This document shows positions 26,615 through 29,003 of a stretch of DNA of 32,033 nucleotides, one piece after another. The number at the start of each line of letters is the position of its first letter. Position 1 is the first letter of the stretch. The stretch comes from Parvularia atlantis (Eukaryota), in NCBI GenBank assembly GCA_943704415.1, contig CALSCO010001500.1, forward strand, positions 1 through 32,033, read 5' to 3'. The notes under the pieces were generated by a model, which was not told the DNA's origin, ran no database searches, and was given only the letters and a program-made list of their open reading frames with translations. Position numbers and translations under genes: made by a program.

Positions 26615-29003
26615 TCACTTCTTCTTGCCCGCGGCCACGCGCGCCTGCCGCGCCAGGTCCTTGTTGCGGAAGATCATCTTGTCGATCTTCTGGCGCGCCT
26701 GGATGTCGCGGCAGACGTAGCCGAGCTTCTGCAGCGTCGTGTTCTTCTCAAGTGACGCGGCAAGCTTCGTCTCTGCGTGCGCGCAACAGTCTGAGACCGC
26801 GGCCCCGACCGCAGCCGGACACACAGCGCACCCGACTTGGCCGCGATCACCGTGCGCTGGTTGTTGAGCAGCATCTCCTTCACGGACGTGTTGACGAGGA
26901 GCATGTCGGCGAGCGCCTCGAGGCCGCCGCTGCCGAGGCTGCGTTGGGTGCGTCCGCCCGTCAGACACGCGCACGCTGCACATCGCGGGGCCAGCAGCAG
27001 CGCACAAGTTGCTTTCAAGGTTGACGATGCCAATCGACTTGTTGCCCGAGAGGCCCTTGGCGATCGCGATCGCGCCGCGCTCGTGGATGACCGCGTTGGC
27101 CGCGGCAAACTCGATCACGTGGTCGTGCTTGCTCAGCGCGTTGCCCAGGCGCACCTGCTGGTCCTCCGTAAAGTACCTGTGCGCACGCACGCACGTCCTG
27201 TGAGCCGTGCGCTGCGCGTGCGTGCGGTGACGCACTCGGCGTTGTTGAGGTTGATGCGCACGCAGTGCGGGTCGTTCGTCTCGAGCTGCCTGATGATCTT
27301 CTCGATCTGCTCCGTCTGCTCGCGCTTGGCCTCGTCCTTCAGCGTCGGGTCGTTGACGATGACCGCGCCGGTGGACACCAGCTTTGGGTCGGCCTTGACA
27401 ACGGCGGGCTGGGCAAGAGTGTTGGGCATCGCCACGGCAAAGTGAAGCACACGCACCTTGTCGTCCACGCCGAGGTCCTCCATCAGCTCCTTCAGCTCCT
27501 CCTCGGTGAGGCCGTCCAGGTCAAGGTCGTCGTCGCCGCCGCTGGAGCTCGCCTTGGGTTTGGCCGTCGTGGGCGACGATGCGGCCGGTGCGGCGGTCGG
27601 TGCGGCGGCCGGTGCGGCGGTGGTCGGGCTGCACGCGGCGTTCAGCCGGGTTGCGCACGGCCTGCAAGCGCGAGCGCACCTCACAAGCTCGCGTTGCGAG
27701 CCGCGCTCACGCTCGCGCTCGAGGCGGCGCTTGTTCCGGTACGCCTCAACGTCGGCTGGCGTCTCCTCCTGCGGTGCCGCTGCCACGACTGCTGCTGCCG
27801 CGGCGTCTGCTGCCGCAGCGTCTGCCTCCTCCTTGGCCTTGTGTGCGGCCACGGCCTCCTCCTCCTCCTGCTTGGCCTTGCGCTCCGCAGCAGCCGTAGC
27901 AGCGGCGGCCGCGGCCTCCTCCTCCTCCTGCTTGGCCTTGCGCGCAGCCTCTGCCGCCGCGGCCTGCCGCTCGGCCGCGCGCCGCCGTGTGCGCTCGGTC
28001 GCCTCGGCGTCGGCCTTAGCCTTGGCCTCGCGCTCCTCGTCTTCCTGGTTGGTCGACGCTGCCTCGGTGCGCTTGCGCTCTGCCTCCTCGTCCTCCTTGG
28101 CCTTGCGCTCAGCGTCGTCGCGCTCAGCCTCCTCCTTGGCTTTGTGCTCCGCCTCCTCCTTGGCTTTGCGCTCAGCCTCCTCCTTGGCTTTGCGCTCAGC
28201 CTCCTCCTTGGCCTTGCGCTCACGCTCCTCGCGCTCGGCATCGCCCGTAACCATAGGCTCAGACGCTGTGCCGTCGTCGCCGCGGCCGGCCATGCGCGCC
28301 GCACGCCGCGCCGCCAGCCGCGCCGAGACGCTGTCGGCCGCGTCGTCTGCGCTGGCCGCTGCTGCGGGCTTGGCGCCAGCGCTGCCACCGCGCAGATCGC
28401 CCTCGGGCCGCGGCACATCGGTCGTGCGCACGGCCTCCTCGAGCTTGGCCGTCGTGAGGTCGTCCTTGTTGTCGATGGTGAGGATGGCGTGGTGGTACTG
28501 CCACGTGCCGCGTGCCGCGTCCCGTGAGAACGGACGGACGGGCGGTTGCGCGGACGGGGCCGGCGCACCACAAAGTGGCCCGCCACCGCCCGCTTGTGCA
28601 CCGACGCCTTGGCCTTCTGCAGGCTCGTGGCGCTGGCCGGGTCGACAAAGACGACGATCACGTAGTCGTCTGCGAGCTTGACGTACCCGAACGAGACCGG
28701 GCCTTGGGACGTGCGCTCAGTACCAGCCCGCGCCACCCGCGCGCCACGCCACCCTCGAGCTTGGCGCGCATCTCGTCGACGCCGCCCGCGCCCGACGCCG
28801 TGATCGACAGCTTGTTGCGCGTCTCGCCGTAGCCCATGAGCAGCCTGTTTGCGTCGACGTGGTCGTCGCCGTGTGCATCAGGCCGATCACGCACACGACA
28901 GGCGACGGCGACGCCAGCGGCCGCACCAGTTCTCAGGCGCGGCGCCGCGGACCTTCTCGTACACCTCGAGCAGCTGCGGATCCGTCAGGTCACACGTGGC
29001 CAT
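26615..29003 (-). CDS. ADF-H (coactosin/drebrin-like) domain + charged linker + tropomodulin-like C-terminus; 9 exons
   Basis: N-terminus MATCDLTDPQLLEVYEKVR..NWLLMGYGETRNKLSITASGAGGVDEMRAKL..FGYVK..LQKAKASVHKRAV is ADF-H-like. KAKEEAER repeats follow. DLDGLTEEELKELMEDL resembles the first tropomyosin-binding site of tropomodulin. LRR: NDPHCVRINLNN..VNLESNFLGSGG..NTSVKEMLLNNQ..LEKNTTLQKLGY..RNKDLARQAR. All joins are in phase. Confidence 0.85.
28118..28222 (-). repeat. Coding 24-nt tandem repeat (KAKEEAER) in the ADF-H-tropomodulin linker
   Basis: Four near-identical AAGGCCAAGGAGGAGGCTGAGCGC-type units on the minus strand. Confidence 0.85.

What the first reader, a model, noticed from the sequence alone, without database searches (positions are those of the whole stretch)
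26615..29003. ADF-H domain fused to tropomodulin: unusual actin-regulator architecture
Seen in sequence: the end of the ADF-H domain and the charged linker lie in one continuous exon (~28498-27680). Further in-phase exons give an acidic helix (GLTEEELKELMEDL) like the first tropomyosin-binding site of tropomodulin, and a full tropomodulin-type LRR domain with its basic C-terminal helix. Established knowledge: animal tropomodulins and leiomodins cap or nucleate actin pointed ends and have no ADF-H domain, while coactosin/drebrin/Abp1 ADF-H domains bind F-actin. Inference: the ADF-H may replace the first actin-binding site, and the ER/K-rich linker may be a single-alpha-helix spacer. That would make an alternative pointed-end capper or nucleator informative about tropomodulin origins outside animals.
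Basis: partly seen in the sequence, partly recalled or inferred. Interest (0 to 1): 0.8.

Follow-up and report, generated by a model that had tools for sequence, protein, structure and literature searches.

The report
ADF-H–tropomodulin fusion actin regulator gene
This spliced, transcribed protist gene joins an ADF-H actin-binding domain, through a long acidic spacer, to the tropomodulin-type domain that caps the slow-growing ends of actin filaments in animals, so it likely binds those ends in a way we found described in no paper.

Summary
A nine-exon minus-strand gene (29003-26615) encodes 633 aa.

The C-terminal 172 aa align without gaps to tropomodulin/leiomodin ABS2, meaning the LRR plus its basic C-terminal helix. 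Tmod/Lmod chains are the best PDB matches by sequence and by fold. Generic RNI-like LRRs and CARMIL score far lower and sit across a fully supported tree branch.

The N-terminus is an ADF-H domain of the drebrin/Abp1/coactosin kind. This is shown through two relatives that pass Pfam Cofilin_ADF.

The same fusion occurs in three other sources: a metagenome relative (L001/L002), P0006, and Fonticula alba XP_009492184.1. It is therefore a conserved family, not a mis-join.

The tropomodulin N-terminal half (Pfam PF03250) is not detectable. Only a short LTEEEL helix resembles its tropomyosin-binding sites.

The ER/K helix is predicted in this species, but relatives carry Pro-rich spacers instead.

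Function is inferred: a pointed-end binder (capper or nucleator). I rate it a new variant of known kinds. Seven full-text searches found no paper describing it.

The parts
26615..29003 (-). Whole coding region of the ADF-H/tropomodulin-type gene: 9 exons, 1902 nt CDS, 633 aa
   Evidence: Hand model, refined with RNA joints and rebuilt. The frame closes with no internal stop.
28927..29003 (-). Exon 1 (ATG 29003-29001). Start of the ADF-H domain, MATCDLTDP...
   Evidence: Joint 28843/28926 (+1) in X1. An in-frame stop lies 18 codons upstream. The N-terminus is conserved in L001, P0006 and P0055. The X1 contig ends about 4 nt short of the ATG, so the 5' end is not resolved.
28845..28926 (-). Intron 1, 82 nt, GTGCGG..ACAG
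28753..28844 (-). Exon 2 (ADF-H)
28703..28752 (-). Intron 2, 50 nt
28569..28702 (-). Exon 3 (ADF-H, basic helix SLQKAKASVHKRAV)
28498..28568 (-). Intron 3, 71 nt
27680..28497 (-). Exon 4: end of the ADF-H domain (28497-28426) continuing without a break into the acidic linker
   Evidence: Open frame. Joints at both ends. X1 contigs tile across it with no hole.
28426..29003 (-). ADF-H domain, residues 1-125 (introns included in the span)
   Evidence: blastp of model residues 4-136 gives P0006 at 38% identity, E 5e-21, and P0055 at 35%, E 2.5e-14. Both relatives pass Pfam Cofilin_ADF. Fold of the P0006 N-terminus: Z 14.4 to drebrin and Abp1 ADF-H.
27778..28242 (-). Predicted continuous alpha-helix of 155 residues (protein 187-341), rich in E/K/R/A
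   Evidence: AlphaFold2 on a single sequence, pLDDT 88-97. A Pro/Gly-free run covers residues 187-342.
28120..28230 (-). 24-nt tandem repeat, 4.6 copies, encoding (EAERKAKE)n
   Evidence: Both RNA and DNA contigs break here.
27852..27911 (-). One 60-nt copy of a direct repeat (ERKAKQEEEEA..) that is absent from the X1 contig. Not an intron (ends CG..CG; 32 nt fit either side).
27629..27679 (-). Intron 4, 51 nt, in frame, GTGCGC..GCAG. Missed by my first model.
   Evidence: A counterpart intron sits at the same place in L001.
27457..27628 (-). Exon 5. An Ala/Pro-rich stretch, then the acidic helix DDDLDLDGLTEEELKELMEDLGVDDK (27534-27457).
27409..27456 (-). Intron 5, 48 nt, in frame
   Evidence: The relative L001 reads DLGVDNQPSIVKADP with no intron here.
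27236..27408 (-). Exon 6. Pre-LRR segment PAVVKADP... (27408-27319), then the first helix and the NLNN strand of the LRR domain.
27177..27235 (-). Intron 6, 59 nt
27006..27176 (-). Exon 7 (LRR)
26939..27005 (-). Intron 7, 67 nt
26832..26938 (-). Exon 8 (LRR, holds G551, the counterpart of Tmod1 G268)
26773..26831 (-). Intron 8, 59 nt
26615..26772 (-). Exon 9. Last LRR (LEKNTTLQKLGY), the basic C-terminal helix (RNKDLARQARVAAGKKK) and the stop codon.
   Evidence: PDB phmmer with this exon alone: the 7 best matches are all Tmod/Lmod C-termini, E 0.008-0.08. It is 82% identical to P0001.

Best explanation
One spliced, transcribed gene (29003-26615, minus strand) encodes a 633-residue protein with an N-terminal ADF-H domain, a roughly 290-residue acidic spacer and the C-terminal half of a tropomodulin; it is predicted to bind actin filaments at or near their pointed ends through the LRR domain, while the ADF-H domain would supply the second actin contact that tropomodulin's N-terminal sites supply in animals.

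Shown:
- The exon structure and the open frame.
- Splicing in RNA-derived contigs.
- The two domain identities.
- Conservation of the whole architecture in three other sources.

Inferred:
- The LRR domain binds actin as Tmod/Lmod ABS2 does.
- The ADF-H domain binds the side of F-actin, as drebrin, Abp1 and coactosin domains do.
- The spacer lets the two modules reach subunits many nanometres apart, or on two filaments. In this species it holds a predicted 155-residue helix, about 23 nm at 0.15 nm per residue.
- The LTEEEL helix may bind tropomyosin or another coiled coil.

The protein lacks ABS1 and TMBS1. The Tmod1 capping-loop contact residues are not kept. The cap may therefore be weak or leaky, and the protein may be more of a pointed-end or side anchor than a tight cap.
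For: Gene and transcript:
- 8 of 8 introns appear as GT..AG joints in X1 contigs; 0 of 8 appear in the DNA run X2.
- X1 contigs cover 28060-28330 without a hole, in 28 of 28 bins, across the repeat where the two long contigs end.
- Exon 4 is one open frame from the ADF-H domain into the linker.

LRR domain:
- Gapless 163-residue alignment to tropomodulin-2.
- The 10 best of 34 PDB sequence matches for P0001 are all Tmod/Lmod ABS2. The same holds for P0006 and for P0055.
- Foldseek on the P0006 model: ranks 1-12 are all Tmod/Lmod, TM 0.83-0.88 over single-domain targets, rmsd 2.0-2.5.
- VIA-align: ranks 1-5 are Tmod/Lmod, Z 17.5-19.2.
- Tree of 91 domains: generic RNI-like LRRs are split off by a 100* branch of length 1.24, and the four fusion proteins form one group (SH-aLRT 91).
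- The window keeps 5 of 7 Tmod1-actin contact residues listed in Table S3 of PMC10665800 (N486, N487, N572, G599, R623), and also G551, the counterpart of G268.

ADF-H domain:
- Pfam Cofilin_ADF scores 35.3 and 31.3 bits (cut-off 22.4) in P0006 and P0055.
- The window aligns to both over the whole domain.
- 29 of 30 Atlas hits fall in Cofilin_ADF sets.
- P0006 model residues 1-129 match drebrin (Z 14.4), Abp1p (14.4), twinfilin (13.7) and coactosins (13.1, 12.6). Cofilins, ADFs and GMF match at Z 9.3-12.2.
- Fonticula's best ADF-H match by sequence is drebrin-like protein, E 4e-6.

Conservation of the fusion:
- L001 gives a complete 601-aa six-exon model with the same order of parts.
- P0006 is 560 aa on a 1.9-kb contig.
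- P0055 is the annotated Fonticula alba protein.

The Tmod/Lmod domain logic (TMBS1, ABS1, TMBS2, ABS2) and the finding that ABS2 alone can cap or nucleate come from passages of PMC4571291.
Against: - No activity was tested; actin binding by either domain is inferred from homology.
- Two Tmod1 residues whose mutation weakened capping (V232, L313; Discussion of PMC10665800) are Ala and Gln here. L313 is Gln in all four family members. V232 is Ala in three and Cys in Fonticula.
- Two of the seven mapped contact residues, both in the Tmod1 capping loop (E176, N179), are not kept (K459, Q462).
- The conserved Asn and Gly contacts are also LRR framework positions, so keeping them says little about actin.
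- No PF03250 (tropomodulin N-terminal half) match was found in any window exon at E<=1, nor in 24 of 24 relatives scanned at E<=0.01.
- Tropomodulin-type LRR domains occur in many protist proteins of other architectures: 91 full-length domains in 75 proteins. None of these has known function, so the domain need not always bind actin.
- The tree does not place the fusion group next to animal Tmods; the deep branching is an open polytomy.
- No X1 contig meets the tool's 31-letter bridging rule at the 24-nt repeat, and no contig shows the 5' end. A shorter internal transcript cannot be excluded.
Confidence: 0.5

Rival explanations
1. Leiomodin-like nucleator. The LRR domain would bind in the groove between actin subunits, and the ADF-H domain would bring a further actin. 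The protein would then seed new filaments rather than cap existing ones.
For: - Passages of PMC4571291 say Lmods nucleate after losing ABS1, TMBS2 and the N-terminal capping loop of ABS2, and that ABS2 hybrids alone can nucleate strongly.
- This protein also lacks ABS1 and does not keep the capping-loop contact residues.
- P0006's best PDB sequence matches are Lmod1 and Lmod2 ABS2 (E 3.5e-25 to 3e-24), slightly ahead of Tmod1. Fonticula's are Lmod2.
Against: - The pre-LRR segment is kept at Tmod-like length, with a PxVVK motif that BLAST aligns to tropomodulin-2. Lmods lack that loop.
- ADF-H domains of the drebrin/Abp1/coactosin kind are known as F-actin binders rather than monomer recruiters (established knowledge, not tested here).
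- There is no WH2 or proline-rich extension after the LRR; the protein ends 10 residues after the helix.
Confidence: 0.2
2. Abp1-like adaptor. Only the ADF-H domain touches actin. The tropomodulin-type LRR is a general protein-binding module that recruits some other partner to actin filaments, as the SH3 domain does in Abp1.
For: - The nearest ADF-H folds are drebrin and Abp1, which are adaptors with long linkers.
- Tropomodulin-type LRR domains appear in many architectures in protists and fungi, including tandem copies. That is typical of a general binding module.
- V232 and L313 of Tmod1 are not conserved.
Against: - The domain keeps the same length, without gaps, plus the basic C-terminal helix and five mapped actin contacts of Tmod1.
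- The LTEEEL helix and the pre-LRR segment that flank ABS2 in tropomodulins are also kept. This points to inheritance of a functional Tmod C-terminal unit and not only of an LRR scaffold.
Confidence: 0.2
3. Artefact. Two neighbouring genes (a small coactosin-like gene and a tropomodulin-like gene) are read as one because a GC-rich, repeat-rich spacer happens to be open.
For: - GC is 66-75%, so long chance ORFs are common; one search lists 68 ORFs of 200 aa or more in 32 kb.
- The two long X1 contigs end 2 nt apart at the 24-nt repeat.
Against: - The ADF-H domain's last 24 residues and the linker share one exon, with no stop and no intron between them.
- X1 contigs tile the gap, and DNA contigs of X2 break at the same repeat. 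The break is therefore an assembly effect.
- The same fusion is found with quite different linkers in L001/L002, P0006 and Fonticula alba.
- There is no ATG-led separate start with a conserved N-terminus before the LRR part.
Confidence: 0.03

Closest known systems
Tropomodulins (Tmod1-4) of animals
   Same: - The C-terminal about 230 residues are collinear: an acidic L(T/S)(E/D)xEL helix, a pre-LRR segment with a VVK/VIK motif, a five-repeat LRR and a basic C-terminal helix.
- 31-33% identity with no gaps across the LRR.
- Same fold, with Z about 19 for the relative P0006.
- G268 and five mapped actin contacts are kept.
   Different: - No detectable TMBS1-ABS1 region (no PF03250 match).
- An ADF-H domain and a 216-288-residue acidic spacer stand in its place.
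- V232 and L313 and the capping-loop contacts are not kept.
- Found in unicellular eukaryotes.
Leiomodins (Lmod1-3) of vertebrates
   Same: - ABS2 LRR with its C-terminal helix.
- Loss of ABS1.
- An extra actin-binding module elsewhere in the chain (WH2 in Lmod, ADF-H here).
- Best PDB sequence matches of P0006 and P0055.
   Different: - The extra module is N-terminal and is an ADF-H domain, not a C-terminal WH2.
- No C-terminal extension.
- The pre-LRR segment is present.
Drebrin, Abp1 (drebrin-like) and coactosin ADF-H proteins
   Same: - N-terminal ADF-H domain; the nearest folds are drebrin and yeast Abp1p (both Z 14.4) and coactosins (Z 12.6-13.1).
- Fonticula's ADF-H domain matches drebrin-like protein at E 4e-6.
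- A long low-complexity linker follows the domain, as in Abp1 and drebrin.
   Different: - The C-terminal module is a tropomodulin-type LRR and not an SH3 domain (Abp1) or nothing (coactosin).
- F-actin binding was not tested.
Fonticula alba XP_009492184.1 / A0A058ZEY4 ('hypothetical protein' / 'ADF-H domain-containing protein')
   Same: - Same architecture and order of parts.
- 35% identity in the ADF-H domain, 36% in the motif plus loop and 39% in the LRR.
- Groups with the window's protein in the LRR tree.
   Different: - Its linker is Ala/Pro/Glu-rich, with no long Pro/Gly-free run.
- A 32-residue insert lies between the motif and the LRR.
- It is annotated only by automatic names; I found no paper on it.
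Tropomodulin-type LRR proteins of chytrids and other protists (e.g. KAJ3093976.1, labelled 'Leiomodin-1', Phlyctochytrium planicorne)
   Same: Same roughly 170-residue LRR domain with its C-terminal basic helix, usually at the very C-terminus.
   Different: - Other N-termini with no ADF-H domain: 0 of 22 non-fusion proteins scanned.
- A different conserved pre-LRR motif (GPPxPxxAxxxxVRxTNP) and no LTEEEL helix.
- A separate clade (SH-aLRT 93).

Membership tests
Tropomodulin/leiomodin family | ABS2: a five-repeat LRR domain of about 170 residues followed by a basic C-terminal helix | tested here: met
   - Gapless 163-residue alignment to tropomodulin-2, E 4e-23.
- Family profile against Tmods, E 8e-28.
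- The best PDB matches by sequence are all Tmod/Lmod.
- By fold (model of relative P0006), the best matches are also all Tmod/Lmod.
Tropomodulin/leiomodin family | N-terminal half with TMBS1 and ABS1 (Pfam Tropomodulin PF03250) | tested here: not met
   - No PF03250 match in any of the 8 exon translations at E<=1.
- None in 24 of 24 relatives at E<=0.01, including P0006 and P0055.
- Animal Tmods in the database do carry PF03250.
Tropomodulin/leiomodin family | Tropomyosin-binding amphipathic helix | tested here: inconclusive
   - The 26-mer around LTEEEL scores 46 against Tmod1 residues 14-39. That is the best outside the family in 176,545 residues, and 1 of 5000 shuffles reaches it.
- As a separate HMMER domain it is not significant, conditional E 0.03-0.24.
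- Collinear alignments put it on TMBS2.
- Tropomyosin binding is not testable here.
Tropomodulin/leiomodin family | Pre-LRR capping loop (Tmod1 164-186), needed for capping and absent in Lmods (PMC4571291) | tested here: inconclusive
   A segment of similar length with a PxVVK motif aligns to tropomodulin-2. Contact residues E176 and N179 are K459 and Q462 here.
Tropomodulin/leiomodin family | Binds actin pointed ends and caps or nucleates | not testable with these tools
   No actin sequence of this organism was available, and no genome is held.
ADF-H domain superfamily (Pfam Cofilin_ADF PF00241) | Profile match over the whole roughly 125-residue domain | tested here: met
   - Indirect. The window's exons are too short alone.
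- The spliced model, residues 4-136, aligns to P0006 (E 5e-21) and P0055 (E 2.5e-14).
- Those two score 35.3 and 31.3 bits against a cut-off of 22.4.
- 29 of 30 Atlas hits fall in Cofilin_ADF sets.
ADF-H domain superfamily (Pfam Cofilin_ADF PF00241) | ADF-H fold (mixed beta-sheet between helices) | tested here: met
   - For the relative P0006: the AlphaFold2 element order is H-E-E-H-E-E-H-H in residues 8-122, pLDDT 46-74.
- VIA-align Z 14.4 to drebrin and Abp1p, and Z 9.3-13.7 to 14 further ADF-H entries.
- The window's own domain could not be folded because it is split over four exons.
Abp1/drebrin-like adaptors | ADF-H domain plus a C-terminal SH3 domain (Abp1) | tested here: not met
   The C-terminus is the LRR domain. 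No SH3 match was found in the exons or in P0006 and P0055.
Generic RNI-like LRR proteins and CARMIL | LRR domain closest to ribonuclease inhibitor, NLR or CARMIL repeats | tested here: not met
   - With P0001: RNase inhibitor E 3e-3 to 1e-2 and CARMIL (4k17) E 0.92, against Tmod/Lmod at 3e-17.
- Outgroup RNI-like segments are split off by a 100* branch.
ER/K single alpha-helix (SAH) spacers | Long E/K/R-rich helix stable as a monomer | tested here: inconclusive
   - A 155-residue helix is predicted at pLDDT 88-97.
- The linker has 26 E-to-K/R and 29 K/R-to-E i,i+4 pairs.
- The second half is Ala-rich rather than ER/K.
- Whether the helix is monomeric is not shown.

The most novel reading that the evidence does not exclude
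This is the first recognised member of a family of tropomyosin-independent pointed-end cappers or anchors in unicellular eukaryotes. In it, an F-actin-binding ADF-H head on a long ruler-like spacer replaces tropomodulin's TMBS1-ABS1. If so, the pointed-end-binding ABS2 unit (helix, loop, LRR, basic helix) predates animals and was repeatedly wired to different actin-binding heads. Animal tropomodulin would be one such combination rather than an animal invention.
Probability: 0.3. Interest if true: 0.8.

Novelty: new variant of a known kind. Interest (0 to 1): 0.6.

Why it matters
- From what I recall of the literature, dedicated pointed-end cappers are described only for animals (tropomodulins) and pointed-end control in other eukaryotes is poorly understood.
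- This gene shows that the tropomodulin C-terminal unit exists outside animals. It is joined to a different actin-binding head, in at least four organisms, one of them culturable and sequenced (Fonticula alba).
- It gives a ready construct for testing two questions. Can ABS2-type domains cap or nucleate without tropomyosin? How does spacer length and stiffness set the reach between two actin-binding modules?
- It also shows that tropomodulin-type LRR domains are widespread in chytrids, aphelids, amoebozoans and diatoms. This bears on how the animal Tmod/Lmod family arose.

Tried and rejected
- No whole genome is held for the window. Tropomyosin and actin of this organism could not be sought. 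Pfam on 43 long ORFs of the window showed neither.
- Pfam on the eight single exons gave only chance-level matches. PDB phmmer with exon 3 alone gave nothing at E<=10.
- A word-index search with exon 6 (27238-27408) among longer proteins found none.
- No RNA holder is listed as RNA for this stretch. X1 is labelled 'RNA?'. I treat it as RNA-derived only because its contigs carry the eight GT..AG joints that the DNA run lacks.
- X1 gives no cover for 26502-26703 (the end of exon 9) or for 29027-29127. The 3' end and the 5' UTR are therefore unresolved.
- No X1 contig meets the 31-letter bridging rule at 28180/28183.
- The dimer test of the helical spacer (two copies of exon-4 residues 80-272) gave no verdict, so SAH versus coiled coil stays open.
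- Alignment A1, with all exon fragments, was badly scattered by MAFFT. I replaced it with A2.
- Foldseek on the full P0006 model listed no ADF-H entry among the rows shown. VIA-align did list them.
- One X2 contig shows a joint 28496 to 28959 (skips 462, ends AC..TC) with only 21 letters on one side. I take it as a chance or repeat match and did not pursue it.
- Earlier-findings look-ups returned nothing.
- I made seven literature searches. No paper holds tropomodulin together with chytrid or with Fonticula. None of the papers listed describes an ADF-H/tropomodulin fusion, judging by titles and abstracts. Subscription journals and about 1.7 million PMC manuscripts are not searched.
- I considered a WH2-like or other actin motif in the conserved 'ARLAAR' stretch of the linker. 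Its position differs between species, so I left it unexplained.
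Full report
**What is there**

The window is GC-rich (66-75%) eukaryotic DNA with short introns. On the minus strand, from the ATG at 29003 to the stop at 26615, I first built an eight-exon model by hand from the sequence. I then laid two public runs that hold this stretch on 26300-29300.

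Run X2 is unspliced DNA. Run X1 is labelled only 'RNA?'. Its contigs carry nine joints:

- Seven are exactly my predicted introns: 82, 50, 71, 48, 59, 67 and 59 nt.
- One is an extra in-frame 51-nt intron (27679-27629) that I had missed.
- One is a 60-nt skip (27852-27911) with CG..CG ends and 32 ambiguous letters. I read it as collapse or copy-number difference of a direct repeat, not an intron.

All eight introns read CT..AC on the + strand, i.e. GT..AG on the gene strand. None of the eight appears in X2. Seven of the eight donors begin GTGCG. The final model has nine exons and 633 residues.

**One transcript or two**

- Exon 4 (28497-27680) holds the last 24 residues of the ADF-H domain and runs on, with no stop or intron, into the linker.
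- One X1 contig of 613 nt joins exons 1-3 to 28497-28183. Another, of 1097 nt, joins 28180-27912 through five introns to exon 9.
- The 2-nt gap between them lies in a 24-nt tandem repeat (4.6 copies), where the DNA contigs of X2 also break.
- Two short X1 contigs (28151-28188 and 28159-28204) tile across it, and 28 of 28 bins between 28060 and 28330 are covered.
X1 also does not reach the 5' UTR or the last about 125 nt of the CDS. An internal start cannot be formally excluded.
- The stronger argument for one gene is comparative; see 'The fusion is conserved' below.

**The C-terminal domain is tropomodulin-type**

- The last exon alone finds Tmod/Lmod C-termini as its seven best PDB matches (E 0.008-0.08).
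- A word-index search with that exon found P0001, a 156-aa fragment from metagenomes that is 82% identical.
- P0001 against the PDB gives 34 matches at E<=1. The ten best are all Tmod1, Lmod1, Lmod2 or C. elegans TMD-1 ABS2 (E 3e-17 to 5e-9) and cover the whole domain and its C-terminal helix.
- In that search LRRC34 follows at 7e-9 over only part of the domain, RNase inhibitors at about 3e-3 or worse, and CARMIL at 0.92.
- The spliced window model aligns to bird tropomodulin-2 residues 179-341 over 163 residues without one gap (33% identity, E 4e-23).
- A profile of the four family members against five tropomodulins gives E 8e-28.
- An AlphaFold2 model of the relative P0006 (LRR pLDDT 73-88) finds Tmod/Lmod structures at Foldseek ranks 1-12 and at VIA-align ranks 1-5 (Z 17.5-19.2).
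- A tree of 87 full-length domains plus 4 generic RNI-like segments splits the generic ones off by a branch with full support. I left out three near-copies of P0006 and three Tmod1 isoforms with internal gaps or inserts.
- In that tree the four fusion proteins form one group (SH-aLRT 91), animal Tmods another (96*) and chytrid-like proteins a third (93). How these groups relate is unresolved.

**The N-terminal domain is ADF-H**

- No single exon is long enough for Pfam.
- A full HMMER scan of 1.84 billion representatives with P0001 gave 3979 matches at E<=0.001, of which the best 150 are listed.
- I ran Pfam on 24 of those 150, choosing short proteins with one or two matched stretches. Two of the 24, P0006 and P0055, carry Cofilin_ADF at the N-terminus (35.3 and 31.3 bits, cut-off 22.4). 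None of the 24 carries the Tropomodulin family PF03250.
- blastp of the window model against all 150 finds exactly these two in the ADF-H region: residues 4-136 at 38% identity, E 5e-21, and at 35%, E 2.5e-14.
- The protein Atlas puts P0006 residues 1-135 among Cofilin_ADF clusters in 29 of 30 hits.
- Structurally, P0006 residues 1-129 match drebrin (Z 14.4), yeast Abp1p (14.4), twinfilin (13.7) and coactosins (13.1, 12.6). Cofilins, ADFs and GMF match at Z 9.3-12.2.
- Fonticula's domain matches drebrin-like protein by sequence (E 4e-6) ahead of coactosins.
- The ADF-H part of the P0006 model has only moderate confidence (pLDDT 46-74). The window's own domain could not be folded because it is split over four exons.

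**The fusion is conserved**

- P0055 is Fonticula alba XP_009492184.1 / A0A058ZEY4, named only 'hypothetical protein' or 'ADF-H domain-containing protein'.
- P0006 (560 aa) lies on a 1.9-kb contig.
- Metagenome loci L001 and L002 (GC 57%) carry the gene that P0001 comes from. tblastn of the window model finds the ADF-H exons, an open E/K/A-rich linker and the LRR in the same order on one strand.
- A six-exon model with GT..AG introns gives a complete 601-aa protein. It shares five intron positions with the window and lacks three, including the 48-nt one. That independently confirms those splice junctions.
- Identity of the window protein to L001 / P0006 / Fonticula is 75/40/35% in the ADF-H domain, 62/45/36% in the motif plus loop, and 76/48/39% in the LRR.

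**The linker**

- The linkers are 216-288 residues long and net acidic (-13 to -41), but otherwise unlike each other.
- The window has a 156-residue Pro/Gly-free E/K/R/A run, and L001 a 192-residue one.
- P0006 is 22% proline (PEPE-type repeats), and Fonticula is 13% proline and 25% alanine.
- AlphaFold2 predicts one 155-residue helix (pLDDT 88-97) for the window's exon 4. That is about 23 nm if it is a single helix (my arithmetic, at 0.15 nm per residue).
- The single-helix idea therefore holds, as a prediction, for this species and its close relative. The family feature is a long acidic spacer.

**The tropomodulin-like flank**

- All four proteins share LTE(E/A)(E/Q)L..L(M/L)(E/D)D(L/V)G(V/L)...P.V.KA just before the LRR.
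- The window's 26-mer, scanned ungapped over 180 proteins (176,545 residues), scores best on the family itself (55-56). Next best is Tmod1 residues 14-39 (score 46) and Tmod2/3-like residues 16-41 (score 33). One of 5000 shuffles of the Tmod1 N-terminal 160 residues reaches 46.
- HMMER alone does not call this helix significant.
- Collinear alignments (hhalign; phmmer of P0006 to full-length Tmod1, 320-557 against 103-345) lay it on the second tropomyosin-binding region instead.
- BLAST aligns the PNVVK segment of P0006 with the pre-LRR loop of tropomodulin-2. Passages of PMC4571291 describe that region as critical for capping and as missing in leiomodins.
- I conclude that the protein holds roughly the C-terminal 60% of a tropomodulin. 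TMBS1-ABS1 is not detectable.

**Actin-contact residues**

I used passages and a supplement passage of PMC10665800 and mapped the supplement's local numbering onto Tmod1 as Tyr170 = 1. Residue identities fit at 6 of 7 positions in P0166. The seventh falls in that isoform's divergent tail but fits P0170.

- The window keeps N203, N204, N289, G316 and R340 (as N486, N487, N572, G599 and R623), and also G268 (as G551).
- It does not keep E176 and N179 (K459 and Q462 here).
- It does not keep V232 and L313 (Ala and Gln here).
- The kept Asn and Gly residues are also LRR framework positions, so this is weak support.

**Mechanism**

Shown: the gene structure, splicing, domain identities and the conserved architecture.

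Inferred: the LRR unit binds actin at the pointed end (or in the groove between subunits, as Lmod ABS2 does). The ADF-H head binds the side of a filament. The spacer sets their reach.

I put about 0.5 on a pointed-end binder with ADF-H as the second contact, 0.2 on a leiomodin-like nucleator, 0.2 on an adaptor whose LRR binds something other than actin, and 0.03 on an artefactual fusion.

**Novelty**

- Both domains are well known. Their combination is present in public databases, but only under automatic names.
- Seven full-text searches found no description of it. No paper holds tropomodulin together with chytrid or with Fonticula.
- Tropomodulin-type LRR domains are much more widespread than the animal family. 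I counted 91 full-length domains in 75 of the proteins fetched.
- Named examples come from chytrids, an aphelid, Stenamoeba, a diatom and a crinoid.
- I rate this a new variant of a known kind, of good interest to people who study actin regulation and its evolution. No function has been shown.

Noticed in passing
window 21990-23364 (+): A second actin-regulator gene, cortactin/HS1-like. One frame starts MWKAAAGQNV...DDDWDTDPDF, which I recall (not tested) as the cortactin N-terminal acidic Arp2/3-binding type. Another frame holds an HS1/cortactin repeat (PF02218, 35.2 bits, cut-off 27). The end holds an SH3 domain (SH3_9, 34.2 bits). It is split by introns and was not modelled.
   Followed up: partly
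window 27852-27911 and 28120-28230: The linker is built of DNA repeats: a 60-nt direct repeat whose second copy is missing from the RNA-derived contig, and a 24-nt unit in 4.6 copies. This suggests that linker length varies between alleles or is collapsed by the assembler.
   Followed up: partly
window 28300-28360 (protein residues 153-170); P0055 residues about 224-244: A basic Ala/Arg helix, SARLAARRAARMAGR, recurs as SARLAARRLARQ in L001 and as ARLAARVLARNQRRARL in Fonticula, but at a different distance from the ADF-H domain. It is predicted helical at low confidence. Meaning unknown.
   Followed up: no
window 26773-28926 (all eight introns): The introns are very short (48-82 nt). Seven of eight donors read GTGCG and the eighth GTGGC. 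The relative L001 uses GTACG, GTGCG or GTAAC. Two introns of the window (51 and 48 nt) are in frame and stop-free, so they are easy to mistake for coding sequence.
   Followed up: yes
P0102, P0107, P0042, P0016, P0057, P0116: Tropomodulin-type LRR domains also occur in other forms: as tandem pairs (for example in the diatom Cylindrotheca fusiformis), as a stand-alone 189-aa protein in the amoebozoan Stenamoeba stenopodia, and after an MGCFGS N-terminus that looks like an acylation signal. None has a described function that I know of.
   Followed up: partly
window 24761-26231 (+) and 29181-29711 (-): The flanking genes are tightly packed. An ankyrin plus endonuclease/exonuclease/phosphatase gene converges on the 3' end. 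An ORF resembling a HAD-type phosphatase ends about 180 nt upstream of the ATG (not Pfam-tested). L002's upstream gene is different, so there is no synteny.
   Followed up: partly
window 28496 to 28959: One contig of the DNA run X2 shows a 462-nt skip with AC..TC ends and only 21 letters on one side. It is probably a chance or repeat match.
   Followed up: no
L003:644-1036: A third metagenome locus, on a 49.6-kb contig, encodes a 34%-identical LRR stretch. Not examined.
   Followed up: no
P0001, P0006 and animal Tmods: The database's precomputed Pfam column assigns PF27087.1 to P0001, to P0006 (with PF00241) and to animal tropomodulins (with PF03250), but also to RanGAP-like LRR proteins. This family is not in the Pfam copy I could scan, so I do not know its name or scope.
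   Followed up: no
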